Shown here one piece after another: positions 21,262 to 25,236 of a DNA stretch of 32,571 bases. The notes under the pieces are model-generated. The model was not told where the DNA came from. It did not search any database and saw only the letters and a program-made list of their open reading frames with translations. Location: NCBI GenBank assembly GCA_045631385.1, contig JAZQUN010000067.1, forward strand, positions 1 to 32,571, written 5' to 3'. Origin of the DNA: Clostridia bacterium. GTDB taxonomy: Bacteria > Bacillota > Clostridia > Christensenellales > CAG-314. Positions within the stretch are counted from its first letter, which is position 1. Every line of letters begins with the position of its first letter. The position numbers and the translations under genes were made by a program.

Positions 21262-21290
21262 AAAAGGCAAGCAAACGCTTGCCTTTTTTT
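21262..21290. terminator. Bidirectional rho-independent terminator
   Basis: AAAA-GGCAAGC / GCTTGCC-TTTTTTT between convergent genes. Confidence 0.85.
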
Positions 21291-21700: not shown

Positions 21701-22159
21701 ATGAATTTAACAACGGTTGCCTTGGCATTGCTTGCTTTTAAATTATTAAGTGGCAAGCCTTCTTCCAGCAAGGCAGAGCAACCCAAGGTGGATTTTGGCA
21801 GTTTTTTGAATGAAGACACACAAAATTTGCTGTCGTGTGTAAACAAGCTGCAAGACAAATCCCTTTCGCAAGAAGACAAAACAAGTGCAATATTTGCCTT
21901 GATTACCAACCCTGCAGTGATGAGCATTTTGTCTAATCTTTCACCCAACGGAAGTCAAAATAACGATGCCACAAGCAACAGCCCGCCAACCCAAACCGAC
22001 ATACAGCAAAACTGCCGCCAAAACGACGAAGGCTACACCTTTGAAACCCCATCGGCCGAAGCCGAGCAAGCCTTTGAGCCTATCAAAAACATTGCCGGCG
22101 TAGAAGTGAGCCACAAATTGTATCACTTGTACGATAATTGGTACGCCAAGAAGCACTAA
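21701..22159 (+). CDS. Hypothetical secreted or membrane-anchored protein (152 aa)
   Basis: Likely start is ATG 21701 after a GGGGGA RBS. N-terminal hydrophobic segment NLTTVALALLAFKLLSG, then a low-complexity Ser/Asn/Gln middle. The stop codon lies inside repeat copy 1. Confidence 0.6.
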   Translation: MNLTTVALALLAFKLLSGKPSSSKAEQPKVDFGSFLNEDTQNLLSCVNKLQDKSLSQEDKTSAIFALITNPAVMSILSNLSPNGSQNNDATSNSPPTQTDIQQNCRQNDEGYTFETPSAEAEQAFEPIKNIAGVEVSHKLYHLYDNWYAKKH

Positions 22160-22198
22160 AAAAGGTTGTTTCACGAAAGTGTGAAACAACCTTTTGTT
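22153..22198. repeat. 46-nt direct repeat, copy 1 (contains a bidirectional terminator hairpin)
   Basis: GCACTAAAAAAGGTTGTTTCACGAAAGTGTGAAACAACCTTTTGTT is identical to 23238-23283. It has an 11-bp perfect stem GGTTGTTTCAC / GTGAAACAACC flanked by A6 and T4. Confidence 0.95.
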
Positions 22199-22232
22199 GT
22201 AATTTCAATGTGGTTTTCAATAACTGTTTTGT

Positions 22233-22562
22233 TTACGAGTTGTAGTCGTAGGGAATTTTGTTTTTGCGCTCGCCTTTTAGGTTGATTATGTAGCCATCTT
22301 CTACCTTGCACCACCAGTTGGGGTCATTGCCGGGCAAATCTTCCAAAATTTCCGCATCCGTCACGTCCGAGCTACGCACAACTTCCAAGTCGCCAACGTG
22401 AATCAAAATTTCGGCATAGTCCTTGCCGTCTTTATGACTAAATACTACTTCGTATTTATCATTACGAAGCCACGAAAAAATAATTGTGCCTATTGCACCT
22501 TTTTCTACGCCTTCACTTTGGTATTTATCTGTTAAAACCTTTACGTCGTCTAAATATTTCAT
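22233..22562 (-). CDS. DUF4926-like small protein with extra C-terminal domain (109 aa)
   Basis: LDDVKVLTDKYQSEGVEKGAIGTIIFSWLRNDKYEVVFSHKDGKDYAEILIHVGDLEVV fits the pattern I recall for DUF4926 (D.V.L...GL.KG..G.IV....YEVEF.D..G......L). The start is 2 nt downstream of the upstream gene's stop. Confidence 0.65.
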   Translation of the reverse strand: MKYLDDVKVLTDKYQSEGVEKGAIGTIIFSWLRNDKYEVVFSHKDGKDYAEILIHVGDLEVVRSSDVTDAEILEDLPGNDPNWWCKVEDGYIINLKGERKNKIPYDYNS

Positions 22563-22564
22563 AA

Positions 22565-23050
22565 TTATCCTTCTATTTTTACAAGATCTTTAAAGTCTAC
22601 AGAAACTAAGCCGTCAAAATTGGCTGTTGTCGTGCCAAAGTCCACCAAAATGCTACCATTTGTTGCCCTGCCTAGTGCAACAACACCGCGGCTGCCCTTG
22701 TGTAAACCAAATTTGCTGTAGCGGTCGTTTTCTACAATCAACTCAACAATGTCACACTCGGCAAAAGGCATGCTGTCAAAGGTTGTTTTTGATTCAAAGA
22801 TTTTGACGTTTTCCGCTACGTACTGCACAAGTTGGCTGCTTAGTTCCGTAGGCAAAACCATATCCGTTGCCTCTACGTCGGCAACGTCAATGGTTGCAAT
22901 CAAGTAATCCCCGTAATTGTTTTCGTTAAAAAACAAAACCAACGCTTTGTCTCCCTTTGTTTGCAAAAGTAACCCCAACAAACCAACGCTTAGCCCCAAA
23001 GCTTTGCAATTGCTATTAAGTTGTTTAAGTTTAACTACGGTAAAAGTCAT
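22565..23050 (-). CDS. Tandem DUF4926-like protein (162 aa from ATG 23050)
   Basis: Two similar modules: VVKLKQLNSNCKALGLSVGLLGLLLQTKGDKALVLFF...IDVADVE and CDIVELIVENDRYSKFGLHKGSRGVVALGRATNGSILVDF...VSVDFKDLVKI. GGAGG RBS lies 9 nt before ATG 23050; the track start 23101 is less likely. Confidence 0.65.
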   Translation of the reverse strand: MTFTVVKLKQLNSNCKALGLSVGLLGLLLQTKGDKALVLFFNENNYGDYLIATIDVADVEATDMVLPTELSSQLVQYVAENVKIFESKTTFDSMPFAECDIVELIVENDRYSKFGLHKGSRGVVALGRATNGSILVDFGTTTANFDGLVSVDFKDLVKIEG

Positions 23051-23116
23051 TACATCCAACCTCCAAATGGTGTGGTGTTTCTTCTGCAAAATAGCAACCA
23101 TCTAACTACTAAACAT

Positions 23117-23145
23117 ATTGTATCACAAATCTCCGTATAAAGCAA
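23117..23145 (-). promoter_or_regulatory. Candidate promoter P1 of the cassette (minus strand TTGCTT-17 nt-TGaTACAAT)
   Basis: On the minus strand, GTGATACAATAT (23115-23126 on +) gives an extended -10, with a TTGCTT -35 at 23140-23145. A second copy of the same 12-mer lies at 23181-23192. Confidence 0.4.
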
Positions 23146-23173
23146 AAGCCTGAAAGAGTTTTTCTTTCGGCTT
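23141..23173 (-). terminator. Minus-strand intrinsic terminator-like hairpin between the two promoter-like 12-mers
   Basis: Minus strand reads AGCCGAAAG-loop-CTTTC(A)GGCT followed by TTTTGCTTT: a 9-bp stem with one bulge. Confidence 0.45.
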
Positions 23174-23237
23174 GTTAAGTATATTGTATCACGGCTTATT
23201 TCTAAATCAAGTTTTTGTGACAACAATTTGCTTAAAG

Positions 23238-23283
23238 GCACTAAAAAAGGTTGTTTCACGAAAGTGTGAAACAACCTTTTGTT
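23238..23283. repeat. 46-nt direct repeat, copy 2 (terminator hairpin immediately downstream of the M29 aminopeptidase gene)
   Basis: Identical to 22153-22198. The 3' flank differs only by an extra TTGTT before the sequences realign at GTA. Confidence 0.95.
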
Positions 23284-23305: not shown

Positions 23306-24538
23306 TTAGATAACCCATTCGCCATCTTCGAATACAAGTGTTTGTTTGCCGTCAAAGCCAACACCAACAATCTTTAGATCCTTTGTGCCAATCATAAAGT
23401 CAACGTGTTGGATGCTGTCGTTTGCACCTGTTTCAAGAAGTTGCTCTGCTGTCAAATCGTTGCCGTTTTTGATAGTTGTTGGGTATGCCTTACCAAAAGC
23501 CAAGTGGCAGCTAGCGTTTTCGTCAAATAGAGTGTTGAAGAACAAAATTCCGCTGTTAGAAATTGGGCTGTTTTTACCGATAAGTGCAACTTCACCAATG
23601 TGAGCAGCGCCTTCGTCGGACTCGATCAAGCCTTTTAGTGTGTCGTAACCCTTTTCTGCTGTAAAGTCAACAACCTTACCATCTTTGAAAGTTAGGCTAA
23701 ATCCGTCAATAACGTTGCCGTTGTATACAAGTGGTAGTGCATTTTTAACAACGCCGTGTACTTTGTTGCGGTGTGGAGCAGTAAATACTTCTTCTGTTGG
23801 CATGTTTGCTGTAAACATAAGTCCATCTTGACCTTGTTCTTCAGCAGCAAGCCACAAGTGATTGTCTGCAAGGCCAACCATCAAGTCTGTGCCGTTGCTA
23901 GATGTAAAGTGAAGGTATTCAAAGTTGTTGTCGTTCAAAAAGTCTGCATGACGGTGAAGTGTTGCAATGTGATCGCGCCAAGCTTGTGTTGGATCTTCTT
24001 GGTCAAGACGCATAATTTTGCCCATAGCATCCCACATTTTGTCTACTGCAACAGCAGGCTCTTCATTTGGGAAAACTGTCTTTGCCCAAGCTTCTGTTGG
24101 CATAGATACGATTGTCCAACGCAAGTAGTTGCTCATGGTAGCCTTTCTAAAGTCAGCCATAGCAACGCTTGCAGCAACATTTGTCTTTGCAAGTTTTTCT
24201 GCGTCAACACCAGCGTAGATGTTAGGGTCGCCTGCAGAAATAGAAATTAGTGCAACTTTACGTTCGATGCAGTATTTGTTAAACTCCAAAGCAAAGCTTG
24301 GTGTTTCGCACAAAGTTTCGGTAGAAGCGTAGTCGTAGTTGATACGGCTTTGTACTTCGTCTCTCCATTGGATATGCACACGCTTTGCACCTGCTTCGTA
24401 AGCTTTTTTGCTAATCAAGTGAGCAAAGTCAGCACACTTTACGTCGCAACGAATAACAACTTCTTGATCTTGTTGAACGTTTGCGCCAATTTTTACAGCA
24501 AGTTCGGCAAATTGTTGCATTTGTTTATTTGTAAGCAT
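23306..24538 (-). CDS. M29-family aminopeptidase (PepS/AmpS-like)
   Basis: 410 aa. N-terminus MLTNKQMQQFAELAVKIGANVQQDQEVVI and later HIGEVALIG, FFNTLFDENASCHLAFG and DFMIGT are typical of thermophilic-aminopeptidase/M29 proteins. Confidence 0.87.
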   Translation of the reverse strand: MLTNKQMQQFAELAVKIGANVQQDQEVVIRCDVKCADFAHLISKKAYEAGAKRVHIQWRDEVQSRINYDYASTETLCETPSFALEFNKYCIERKVALISISAGDPNIYAGVDAEKLAKTNVAASVAMADFRKATMSNYLRWTIVSMPTEAWAKTVFPNEEPAVAVDKMWDAMGKIMRLDQEDPTQAWRDHIATLHRHADFLNDNNFEYLHFTSSNGTDLMVGLADNHLWLAAEEQGQDGLMFTANMPTEEVFTAPHRNKVHGVVKNALPLVYNGNVIDGFSLTFKDGKVVDFTAEKGYDTLKGLIESDEGAAHIGEVALIGKNSPISNSGILFFNTLFDENASCHLAFGKAYPTTIKNGNDLTAEQLLETGANDSIQHVDFMIGTKDLKIVGVGFDGKQTLVFEDGEWVI

Positions 24539-25207: not shown

Positions 25208-25236
25208 AAAGGACACTCGCACGGGTGTCCTTTTTT
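25208..25236 (+). terminator. Rho-independent terminator after ppiB
   Basis: AAAGGACAC...GTGTCC stem followed by TTTTTT. Confidence 0.85.

What the first reader, a model, noticed from the sequence alone, without database searches (positions are those of the whole stretch)
22153..23283. Perfect 46-nt direct repeats, each a bidirectional terminator hairpin, bracket a roughly 1 kb two-gene cassette
**Seen in the sequence.**
- GCACTAAAAAAGGTTGTTTCACGAAAGTGTGAAACAACCTTTTGTT occurs identically at 22153-22198 and 23238-23283.
- Each copy holds an 11-bp perfect stem flanked by A6 and T4.
- Copy 1 includes the last codons and stop of the + gene 21701-22159. It also terminates the minus-strand cassette genes.
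- Copy 2 sits right after the minus-strand aminopeptidase gene.
- The repeat explains why two spurious ORFs in the track both begin MFHTFVKQPFLV.

**Inference.**
- The ancestral locus was probably the + gene and the aminopeptidase gene converging on one shared terminator.
- The 22199-23237 segment, carrying its own promoter-like region and two genes, was then inserted at the hairpin with duplication of 46 nt.
- No transposase, integrase or classical short target-site duplication is present. The mechanism could be hairpin- or terminator-targeted insertion, or homologous capture between repeated terminator elements, and it is not obvious which.
Basis: partly seen in the sequence, partly recalled or inferred. 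Interest (0 to 1): 0.7.

Follow-up and report, generated by a model that had tools for sequence, protein, structure and literature searches.

The report
Duplicated terminator palindrome brackets a swapped immunity-gene cassette
A roughly 1 kb cassette of two immunity-type (DUF4926) genes sits between two identical copies of a palindromic terminator in an uncultured Clostridia genome, and it has spread recently between related lineages by a mechanism that is still unknown.

Summary
The 46-nt repeat is perfect at 22153-22198 and 23238-23283. Each copy folds into a 15-bp hairpin shaped like a two-way terminator. Copy 1 contains the stop codon of the + gene, and copy 2 lies 22 nt after the M29 aminopeptidase gene.

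The same layout appears in independent metagenome assemblies of at least three related lineages, so it is not an assembly artefact. It is also not private to this genome.

The cassette is foreign to its flanks. Synonymous divergence is 0.36-1.5 in flanking genes but 0.03-0.065 in the DUF4926 gene. High identity starts at the palindrome.

The cassette is a mosaic. Relatives carry a 188-aa gene that is probably a MuF/BECR-Tox3-type toxin, or a clean in-frame deletion of it. This window carries a second DUF4926-domain protein of 161 aa instead.

The 5' edge of the repeat matches each lineage's own + gene end. That fits duplication of host sequence, or ongoing exchange between the two copies.

I found no empty site, no recombinase, and no further hairpin copy in the 32.5 kb contig. 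A 560-nt closed-loop contig (one cassette plus one hairpin) hints at a circular or tandem form, but it could be an assembler artefact.

The cargo is ordinary. The bounded, recombinase-less spread is moderately interesting.

The parts
21701..22159 (+). Conserved lineage-specific gene of 152 aa and unknown function. Its last codon and stop (CAC TAA) lie inside repeat copy 1.
   Evidence: ORF. C-termini vary by sub-clade...AKKH*...AKPSKR/K*, and ...VK* in distant relatives.
22153..22198 (.). Direct repeat copy 1, with hairpin at 22160-22195. It is a putative two-way terminator for the + gene and for the minus-strand cassette.
22233..22562 (-). 109-aa DUF4926 protein, of the immunity or antitoxin type. 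This is the recently exchanged core of the cassette.
   Evidence: Pfam DUF4926, E = 1.9e-7, above the curated cutoff. 320 homologues, most of those listed 108-111 aa long. It is 98-99% identical in DNA to L081 and L091, with dS 0.03-0.065.
22565..23050 (-). 161-aa protein with a C-terminal DUF4926-like domain. It occupies the position where relatives carry a 188-aa toxin-like gene. GGAGG lies about 9 nt upstream of the ATG at 23050.
   Evidence: No Pfam hit for the protein itself. Its family has 153 representatives at E <= 0.001, and 22 of 46 members hit DUF4926. hhalign of residues 100-161 against the DUF4926 domain gives probability 97.6%. It is unrelated to the L081 188-aa protein.
23102..23116 (-). 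Remnant mini-ORF ATG TTT AGT AGT TAG. It keeps the start codon of the displaced upstream gene.
   Evidence: Alignment A5. ATGTT is invariant in the window, L081, L091 and L098.
23146..23173 (-). Conserved hairpin in the leader (AAGCCGAAAG...CTTTCAGGCTT on the transcribed strand). At another locus (L098) it follows an upstream gene and looks like that gene's terminator.
23183..23210 (-). Promoter-like site for the cassette: TTGATT, a 16-nt spacer as scored by the scan, then an extended -10 (TGATACAAT).
   Evidence: Conserved in L081 and L091.
23238..23283 (.). Direct repeat copy 2, with hairpin at 23245-23280. It is a putative terminator of the M29 gene and separates that gene from the cassette promoter.
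23306..24538 (-). M29 aminopeptidase gene, the conserved flank.
   Evidence: Pfam Peptidase_M29, E = 2.8e-161. It is 85-89% identical in DNA to L081 and L091, with dS 0.49-0.87.

Best explanation
**What it is**
- The 22199-23237 segment is a small self-contained transcription unit: promoter, leader and two genes. It derives from a phage-type toxin-immunity module in which a MuF/BECR-Tox3-like toxin gene is followed by a DUF4926 immunity gene.
- In this genome the toxin gene has been replaced by a second DUF4926-domain gene. The cassette is therefore toxin-less and carries only immunity-type genes.
- It lies in a variable slot between two convergent core genes and is bounded by two copies of a palindromic two-way terminator.

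**How it most likely arose and behaves**
- Shown: the cassette is exchanged horizontally among related Clostridia lineages. The tract of high identity begins at the palindrome.
- Shown: the 5' edge of the repeat is a copy of the host's own + gene end.
- Inferred: the duplication arose when a cassette carrying one terminator copy recombined into the terminator region. A Campbell-type single crossover, or another duplicative insertion, would leave the shared segment on both sides.
- Inferred: later recombination between the two copies keeps them identical. It also allows loss, tandem amplification or re-entry of the cassette.
- Inferred: both copies persist because each convergent transcription unit needs its own terminator.
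For: **Layout and reality**
- The perfect repeat and hairpin are confirmed.
- The same layout occurs in independent assemblies of three lineages, with repeats of 46, 44 and 43 nt.

**Recent horizontal exchange**
- Flanking genes are 68-90% identical, with dS 0.36-1.5.
- Copy 1, the spacer and the DUF4926 gene are 97-100% identical, with dS 0.03-0.065.
- Leader, mini-ORF and DUF4926 gene are 99.7% identical over 396 nt at a second locus, next to a pepO-like gene. Identity ends about 5 nt after the stop codon.
- A more diverged copy of the gene pair sits at a third locus, L098.

**Mosaic cargo**
- The upstream gene is a 188-aa protein in L081.
- It is deleted in frame to MLKD* in L091 and L094.
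- It is the unrelated 161-aa gene in this window.

**Nature of the cargo**
- The 109-aa protein hits DUF4926.
- The 188-aa protein gives weak hits to DUF6883 (E = 0.015) and to the end of Phage_Mu_F (E = 0.2).
- It is homologous, with a pairwise E of 6e-11, to a 218-aa phage protein encoded just after the portal gene. Three genes follow that protein: two of 112 aa, one of which is the 49%-identical match to the 109-aa protein, and one of 114 aa sharing its WCKVENGYI motif.
- bioRxiv 10.64898/2026.08.28.747851 reports DUF6883 (BECR-Tox3) with a conserved downstream DUF4926 gene and with MuF fusions.

**Host origin of the repeat edge**
- GCACTAA matches ...K(K/R)H* in sub-clade A.
- GTAGC matches ...PSK(R/K)* in sub-clade B.

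**Variable slot**
- L004 carries a GNAT gene in the same slot.
Against: - I found no empty site, so the insertion itself is inferred.
- The hairpin core is identical in all 17 copies across 10 contigs. Apart from L083, which ends at the hairpin, it was never seen without the cassette. It may therefore not have been a pre-existing host terminator.
- Conversion by ordinary homologous recombination cannot easily homogenise bases at the very edge of a 46-nt repeat.
- The toxin assignment rests on sub-threshold Pfam hits.
- Terminator and promoter functions are predicted only.
- Only 32.5 kb of this genome is available, so copy number elsewhere and any trans-acting recombinase are unknown.
Confidence: 0.5

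Rival explanations
1. The palindrome is a true recombination site: 15-bp perfect arms around an asymmetric 6-bp spacer, like lox or FRT. A recombinase encoded elsewhere in the genome would excise the cassette as a circle of 0.56-1.1 kb carrying one site, then reinsert it. On this reading the cassette is a tiny non-autonomous element resembling an integron cassette.
For: - The arms are invariant in 17 copies while the loop varies (GAAAGT, GAAAGC, TAAAGT) and is inverted once, to ACTTTC.
- The tract of high identity starts at the palindrome.
- L096 is a 560-nt closed-loop contig seen in two samples. It equals one cassette plus one hairpin, joining the left flank of copy 2 to the right flank of copy 1.
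- The cassette occurs at more than one locus.
Against: - No recombinase appears among 20 large ORFs of the 32.5 kb contig or in the related loci.
- Site-specific crossover does not explain why the repeat includes lineage-specific host codons.
- At the second and third loci the cassette lacks this hairpin.
- The invariance of the hairpin is not significantly beyond the neighbouring leader, which is 92% identical; the chance of 28 of 28 matches is about 0.1.
- The loop contig can arise in MEGAHIT, because the 43-nt repeat exceeds what I recall as the assembler's smallest default k values (21, 29 and 39; from memory), and because several strains share the cassette.
Confidence: 0.2
2. The cassette inserted by a transposition-like event with staggered cuts on either side of the extruded cruciform. 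Gap repair then duplicated the whole 44-46-nt target, in the way CRISPR repeat duplication works. This would have happened independently in each sub-clade.
For: - The edge of the repeat equals the host's own gene end in two sub-clades.
- The repeat spans the entire palindrome plus a few bases on each side.
Against: - It requires the same 28-bp palindrome to have pre-existed in lineages whose adjacent gene is only 68-73% identical. No cassette-free hairpin was found.
- In L091 the left flank of copy 2 carries the L081-type sequence (GTAGC), not L091's own gene end. Copy 2 therefore travelled with the cassette.
- No transposase and no terminal inverted repeats are present.
Confidence: 0.12
3. 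There is nothing mobile. The locus was inherited vertically with two ordinary terminators, and the similarity of cassette and repeat reflects purifying selection. Alternatively, the repeat is an assembly artefact.
For: - The layout sits at the same locus in all close lineages.
- Other terminators in the window share the AAAAGG...CCTTTT shape.
Against: - dS of the DUF4926 gene is 0.03-0.065 against 0.36-1.5 in neighbouring genes.
- The non-coding spacer is also 97-100% identical.
- The upstream gene is swapped or deleted between lineages.
- The same segment sits at a second locus.
- The two-copy layout recurs in at least four independent assemblies.
Confidence: 0.04

Closest known systems
MuF-family polymorphic toxin with immunity gene: DUF6883/BECR-Tox3 toxin followed by DUF4926, usually in phages (bioRxiv 10.64898/2026.08.28.747851; Zhang et al. 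2012, PMC3482391)
   Same: - A DUF4926 gene lies immediately downstream of a toxin-like gene in the relatives.
- A phage counterpart of the pair lies next to the portal gene (L101).
- The upstream gene is replaceable, and immunity genes occur without a toxin.
   Different: - This window has no toxin, only two DUF4926-domain genes.
- The 188-aa protein retains only the last stretch of MuF, and its hits are below threshold.
- The cassette lies in a chromosomal core region with no prophage around it.
- Duplicated terminator palindromes are not, to my knowledge, a described feature of these systems.
Moron-type autonomous cassette (promoter, gene, terminator) or minimal mobile element between conserved flanking genes (from memory: Juhala/Hendrix 2000; Saunders and Snyder 2002)
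   Same: - It is a self-contained transcription unit with no mobility gene.
- It sits in a slot between conserved genes that holds different cargo in different lineages, for example L004.
   Different: Minimal mobile elements move by homologous recombination within the flanking genes. Here high identity stops at the palindromes, not inside the flanks, and the boundaries are a duplicated 43-46-nt segment.
Integron gene cassettes and attC clusters lacking an integrase, and the recombinase-associated arrays of orphan immunity genes (rAID) of Bacteroidales (PMC12247911)
   Same: - Small cassettes bounded by hairpin-forming repeats in direct orientation.
- The cargo is toxin-immunity or orphan immunity genes.
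- A circular form with one site is possible.
   Different: - No integrase or tyrosine recombinase was found.
- The palindrome is perfect, with no extrahelical bases and no RYYYAAC/GTTRRRY boxes.
- The cassette has its own promoter.
- There are only two sites.
- The host is a Clostridia lineage.
Integrative elements that use the Xer recombinases at dif (IMEX) and pdif modules
   Same: - The site has an 11-6-11 layout of 28 bp and is duplicated around an island that lacks an integrase.
- It lies between convergent genes.
   Different: - GC skew stays positive on both sides, so this is not the replication terminus.
- The sequence does not resemble the Firmicutes dif consensus as I recall it.
- pdif modules are flanked by inverted sites, not direct ones.

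Membership tests
Intrinsic two-way terminator | Stable stem-loop followed by a T-run, with an A-run upstream for the opposite direction, located at the 3' ends of genes | tested here: met
   - The stem is 15-16 bp, -20.7 kcal/mol, z = -5.4.
- A6 lies upstream. Downstream is TTTTGTT, a weak tail on the + strand and a strong T6 tail on the minus strand.
- The terminator scan flags both copies.
- Both copies lie at gene 3' ends.
Intrinsic two-way terminator | Transcripts actually end there | not testable with these tools
   This needs Term-seq or RNA-seq.
DUF6883/BECR-Tox3 toxin with DUF4926 immunity module | DUF4926 protein encoded immediately downstream | tested here: met
   Pfam DUF4926, E = 1.9e-7, 30.8 bits against a cutoff of 29.1.
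DUF6883/BECR-Tox3 toxin with DUF4926 immunity module | Upstream gene encodes a DUF6883/BECR-type toxin | tested here: not met
   - In the window the upstream gene is a 161-aa DUF4926-like protein.
- In relative L081 the 188-aa protein hits DUF6883 only at E = 0.015, below the cutoff, so that case is inconclusive.
DUF6883/BECR-Tox3 toxin with DUF4926 immunity module | Link to phage MuF or the head-morphogenesis region | tested here: inconclusive
   - The Phage_Mu_F C-terminal motif scores E = 0.2.
- A homologue of the 188-aa protein (pairwise E = 6e-11) lies after the portal gene in viral contig L101.
- No prophage is present in the window.
Integron cassette / attC | attC with R/L boxes and extrahelical bases, plus an integrase nearby | tested here: not met
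   - The palindrome is perfect and I saw no RYYYAAC...GTTRRRY by inspection.
- No recombinase appears among 20 large ORFs.
- I ran no attC covariance model.
IMEX at dif | Site at the replication terminus (GC-skew switch) resembling the dif consensus | tested here: not met
   GC skew is positive across the whole contig apart from a local dip over the minus-strand genes.
Insertion sequence or transposon | Transposase, terminal inverted repeats and a short target duplication | tested here: not met
   - The cassette has no transposase.
- No terminal inverted repeats are present other than the hairpins themselves.
- The repeat is 46 nt.
IS200/IS605-type hairpin element (PATE) | Different subterminal hairpins at both ends, no duplication, and a circle junction carrying both hairpins | tested here: not met
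   The loop contig L096 carries a single hairpin. No TnpA or TnpB was found.
Dispersed REP-like repeat family | Many copies scattered through the genome | tested here: inconclusive
   - Only 2 copies occur in 32.5 kb and 2 in each related locus.
- No relevant hit appeared in the JGI metagenome or viral scans.
- The rest of the genome was not available.
Minimal mobile element | Exchange by homologous recombination within conserved flanking genes | tested here: not met
   Identity drops to 68-90% immediately outside the palindromes.

The most novel reading that the evidence does not exclude
The 15-6-15 palindrome is the recombination site of a previously undescribed class of very small mobile cassettes in Clostridia.
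- The cassettes are 0.56-1.1 kb and encode no recombinase.
- They would excise as circles carrying one hairpin, insert at terminators, and ferry toxin-immunity or orphan immunity genes between species.
- They would depend on a recombinase supplied in trans, making them a functional analogue of integron cassettes in Firmicutes.
Probability: 0.15. Interest if true: 0.8.

Novelty: new variant of a known kind. Interest (0 to 1): 0.5.

Why it matters
**Why the finding is of interest**
- Orphan immunity genes are thought to shield gut bacteria from neighbours' toxins, but how they spread in Firmicutes is poorly understood.
- Here a promoter-to-terminator immunity cassette is nearly identical across lineages whose neighbouring genes are saturated at synonymous sites.
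- It has sharply defined palindromic boundaries and no mobility gene.

**What would follow**
- If the palindromes are the exchange points, whether by homologous or site-specific recombination, this is a compact route for sharing immunity genes.
- It would also be a handle for finding more such cassettes.

**If it is only a duplicated terminator** around an old insertion, the finding is a tidy but ordinary example of a variable genomic islet.

Tried and rejected
**Searches that found nothing useful**
- Exact-protein look-ups for the window's M29, DUF4926 and + gene products found nothing on record.
- In the genome collection the nearest M29 homologue is only 71% identical. Of 80 loci, only L004 is syntenic, and it has no hairpin.
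- The two JGI metagenome scans for the hairpin gave 0 hits and one chance hit in a high-GC organism.
- Viral-contig scans found nothing for the hairpin, the leader motif or the 188-aa protein.
- The viral scan for the 109-aa protein gave one distant phage locus, L101.
- Rfam gave nothing meaningful.
- PADLOC and NCBIfam gave nothing.
- PDB sequence searches gave nothing.

**Analyses that failed**
- The AlphaFold model of the 161-aa protein was poor (pLDDT 50), so I did not run a fold search.

**Readings considered and rejected**
- *A dif/Xer site:* GC skew does not switch.
- *An integron attC site:* the palindrome is perfect, lacks the conserved boxes and has no integrase nearby.
- *A CRISPR array:* there are only two copies, about 1 kb apart.
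- *An assembly artefact:* the layout recurs in independent assemblies.

Full report
**1. The observation**

The 46-mer GCACTAAAAAAGGTTGTTTCACGAAAGTGTGAAACAACCTTTTGTT occurs at 22153-22198 and 23238-23283.
- There are no mismatches and no third copy, even allowing 3 mismatches. None appeared in 100 shuffles.
- Each copy folds into a 15-bp stem (AAAAGGTTGTTTCAC / GTGAAACAACCTTTT) with a 6-nt loop. Free energy is -20.7 kcal/mol and z = -5.4.
- The terminator scan reports both copies.
- Copy 1 overlaps the last codon and the stop of the + ORF that ends at 22159.
- Copy 2 ends 22 nt from the stop of the M29 aminopeptidase gene.
- The two spurious ORFs starting MFHTFVKQPFLV are present.

**2. Setting**

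- The window is a complete 32,571-nt contig of an NCBI metagenome-assembled genome (P0001).
- It carries housekeeping genes, including:
  - UvrC, an aminoacyl-tRNA synthetase of the Trp/Tyr class, MscL, DnaX and a class II synthetase;
  - an S41 peptidase, M29, cyclophilin, chorismate synthase and dehydroquinate synthase.
- No recombinase appears among 20 large ORFs scanned.
- GC skew stays positive across the contig, so this is not the replication terminus.
- The nearest M29 genes in the species-level genome collection are 64-71% identical. They come from uncultured Clostridia, including Oscillospiraceae and Candidatus Fimimonas MAGs.

**3. The cassette**

| Feature | Coordinates (minus strand) | Evidence |
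|---|---|---|
| Promoter-like site, TTGATT plus extended -10 TGATACAAT | 23183-23210 | |
| Leader hairpin | 23146-23173 | |
| Remnant mini-ORF ATG TTT AGT AGT TAG | 23102-23116 | |
| 161-aa gene with its own GGAGG | 22565-23050 | |
| 109-aa DUF4926 gene | 22233-22562 |, E = 1.9e-7 |

- The 161-aa protein has no Pfam hit of its own.
- It belongs to a family of about 160-aa proteins with 153 cluster representatives at E <= 0.001. Of 46 members scanned, 22 hit DUF4926.
- Its C-terminal 60 residues align to the DUF4926 domain of the 109-aa family with 97.6% probability.
- The window's cassette therefore encodes two DUF4926-domain proteins and no recognisable toxin.

**4. Relatives**

I reached the relatives through homologues of the + gene and of the 109-aa protein.

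*L081 and L082*
- The + gene is 62% identical at the protein level.
- They have the same layout: + gene, hairpin, DUF4926, upstream gene, promoter and leader, hairpin, M29.
- The direct repeat is 44 nt and 98% identical between copies.
- The upstream gene is an unrelated 188-aa protein.

*L091 and L094*
- The layout is the same, with a 43-nt repeat.
- The 188-aa gene is reduced to ATG TTA AAG GAT TAA (MLKD*), a clean in-frame deletion.

*L088 and L089*
- They show the hairpin followed by the 3' end of the DUF4926 gene downstream of the + gene.

*L083*
- This is the closest relative, 86% identical in the + gene.
- The contig ends at the hairpin, and the loop is inverted (ACTTTC).

*L095*
- Leader, MLKD* and DUF4926 are 99.7% identical to L091 over 396 nt.
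- Identity stops about 5 nt after the stop codon.
- Downstream are a different terminator and a pepO-like gene, so this is a second locus.

*L098*
- The pair of 188-aa and 109-aa genes is 79% and 83% identical in DNA.
- It lies inside a tandem array of small DUF4926-like paralogues, so this is a third locus without the hairpin.

*L004*
- This is the most distant syntenic relative.
- It has M29 and the + gene convergent, with different cargo between them: an HTH fragment and a GNAT gene.
- It has no repeat.

**5. Horizontal exchange**

| Segment | Window vs L081/L091 (DNA identity) | L081 vs L091 |
|---|---|---|
| + gene | 68-72% | 73% |
| 108-aa neighbour | 76-78% | 81% |
| M29 | 85-89% | 90% |
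| Cyclophilin | 79-80% | 91.5% |
| Copy 1, spacer and DUF4926 gene | 97-99% | 98-100% |
| Leader | 92% | 96.7% |
| Copy 2 | 97.6% (best BLAST match was to copy 1 of the relative) | 100% |

- Synonymous divergence is 0.36-1.5 in the four flanking genes and 0.03-0.065 in the DUF4926 gene.
- The non-coding 34-nt spacer is also 97-100% identical.
- This cannot be purifying selection. The DUF4926 block has moved between lineages recently.
- The high-identity tract begins at the A-run just before the hairpin stem and ends at the DUF4926 start codon.
- The upstream gene position is replaced almost exactly at ORF boundaries.

**6. Nature of the module**

- The 188-aa protein gives sub-threshold hits to DUF6883 (E = 0.015) and to the CxxC...HPNCxC end of Phage_Mu_F (E = 0.2).
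- It is homologous (26% identity over 163 residues, pairwise E = 6e-11) to a 218-aa protein in viral contig L101.
- That phage protein is encoded directly after the portal gene. It is followed by three genes:
  - two of 112 aa, one of which is the 49%-identical match to the 109-aa protein;
  - one of 114 aa, which shares the WCKVENGYI motif.
- A 2026 preprint reports that DUF6883 equals BECR-Tox3, a ribonuclease toxin. It also reports that a conserved DUF4926 gene commonly follows it and that it is often fused to MuF.
- The cassette is therefore best read as a MuF-type toxin-immunity module. It has been stripped of its toxin in L091 and re-equipped with another DUF4926-type gene in this window.

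**7. The repeat itself**

Seventeen hairpin copies are tabulated.
- The 11-nt arms are invariant.
- The loops are GAAAGT in most copies, GAAAGC in L088, TAAAGT in L089, and ACTTTC (inverted) in L083.

The 5' edge of the repeat differs between sub-clades but is the same within a genome.
- *Sub-clade A* is the window and L083, and by their protein ends P0003 and P0004. The edge is GCACTAAAAAA, which encodes the end of ...K(K/R)H*.
- *Sub-clade B* is L081 and L089. The edge is GTAGCAAAAAA(C/T)AA, which follows ...PSK(R/K)*.
- The repeat edge is thus a copy of host coding sequence. This favours duplication of host target sequence or exchange between the copies.
- In L091 the left flank of copy 2 carries the L081-type GTAGC, whereas its own gene end is CCAAGCAAAAAATAA. 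Copy 2 therefore travels with the cassette.
- The + gene stop codon lies inside the repeat in every lineage, and the C-terminus varies, which suggests repeated remodelling of this junction.
- Neither ordinary gene conversion nor a single insertion event accounts for all of this.

**8. A possible circular or tandem form**

- L096 is 560 nt, a MEGAHIT contig seen in two samples.
- It is an exact circular permutation of the 559-nt L091 unit. It joins the left flank of copy 2, through one hairpin, to the right flank of copy 1.
- This is the junction expected for recombination between the two copies, giving a circle or a tandem duplication.
- It is also what a de Bruijn assembler can emit. The 43-nt repeat exceeds what I recall as its smallest default k values, and the cassette has higher coverage than any one set of flanks.
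- I treat it as a lead, not evidence.

**9. Comparison with known systems**

- The hairpin meets the sequence criteria for a two-way intrinsic terminator. Other terminators in the window share its AAAAGG...CCTTTT shape.
- The following were considered and fail defining features (see the membership table):
  - integron attC sites;
  - dif-integrating elements;
  - insertion sequences;
  - IS200/IS605-type hairpin elements;
  - minimal mobile elements.
- The nearest descriptions are a moron-like toxin-immunity islet and, functionally, orphan-immunity cassettes such as the Bacteroidales rAID arrays.

**10. Verdict**

- The event is not recent or private to this genome.
- The hairpin may belong to the cassette.
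- The mechanism remains open.
- The cargo is of a known kind. The palindrome-bounded spread without a recombinase is the unusual part.

Noticed in passing
L083:588-615: In the closest relative (+ gene 86% identical) the hairpin has identical arms but the 6-nt loop is the reverse complement (ACTTTC instead of GAAAGT). The contig ends 6 nt later. This could be an inverted site or a templated loop flip.
   Followed up: partly
L096:1-560: This 560-nt contig, seen in two samples, is an exact circular permutation of the 559-nt hairpin-plus-cassette unit of L091. It is either a circle or tandem junction, or a loop produced by the assembler.
   Followed up: partly
L091:4975-5000 (and L094, L095): The 188-aa toxin-like gene is reduced to ATG TTA AAG GAT TAA (MLKD*). 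The deletion is in frame, lies between two similar 12-nt stretches, and leaves the DUF4926 gene alone.
   Followed up: yes
window 23115-23126 and 23181-23192: ATATTGTATCAC occurs twice, 66 nt apart. It is the reverse complement of an extended -10 element (TGATACAAT). One copy belongs to the predicted promoter. The other abuts the old start codon, and a terminator-like hairpin (23146-23173) lies between them.
   Followed up: partly
L004:4649-6051: In the most distant syntenic relative the slot between M29 and the + gene holds a GNAT acetyltransferase gene and an HTH fragment, with no flanking repeats. The record is labelled Corallococcus, but its genes look clostridial, so the label is probably a binning error.
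   Followed up: partly
L098:1-2450: The toxin-like and DUF4926 gene pair lies within a tandem array of 69-84-aa DUF4926-like paralogues. A 61-nt intergenic repeat (89% identical) occurs 2110 nt apart, which looks like an array of immunity genes.
   Followed up: partly
L101:1083-4691: This viral contig encodes, in order: a portal protein; a 218-aa homologue of the 188-aa protein; and three genes of 114, 112 and 112 aa. One 112-aa gene is the 49%-identical match to the 109-aa protein, and the 114-aa one shares its WCKVENGYI motif. This places the module in a phage head-morphogenesis region.
   Followed up: partly
window 22140-22159 and homologues P0001-P0013: The C-terminus of the + gene varies between lineages: ...WYVK* or ...WYIK* in distant relatives, and ...AKKH*, ...GKRH* or ...AKPSKR/K* in lineages with the hairpin. 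In the lineages with DNA in hand the stop codon falls inside the repeat.
   Followed up: yes
window 21262-21287 and 25208-25233: Other predicted two-way terminators share the AAAAGG...CCTTTT outer shape of the repeated hairpin, but their stems are shorter and richer in G+C.
   Followed up: no
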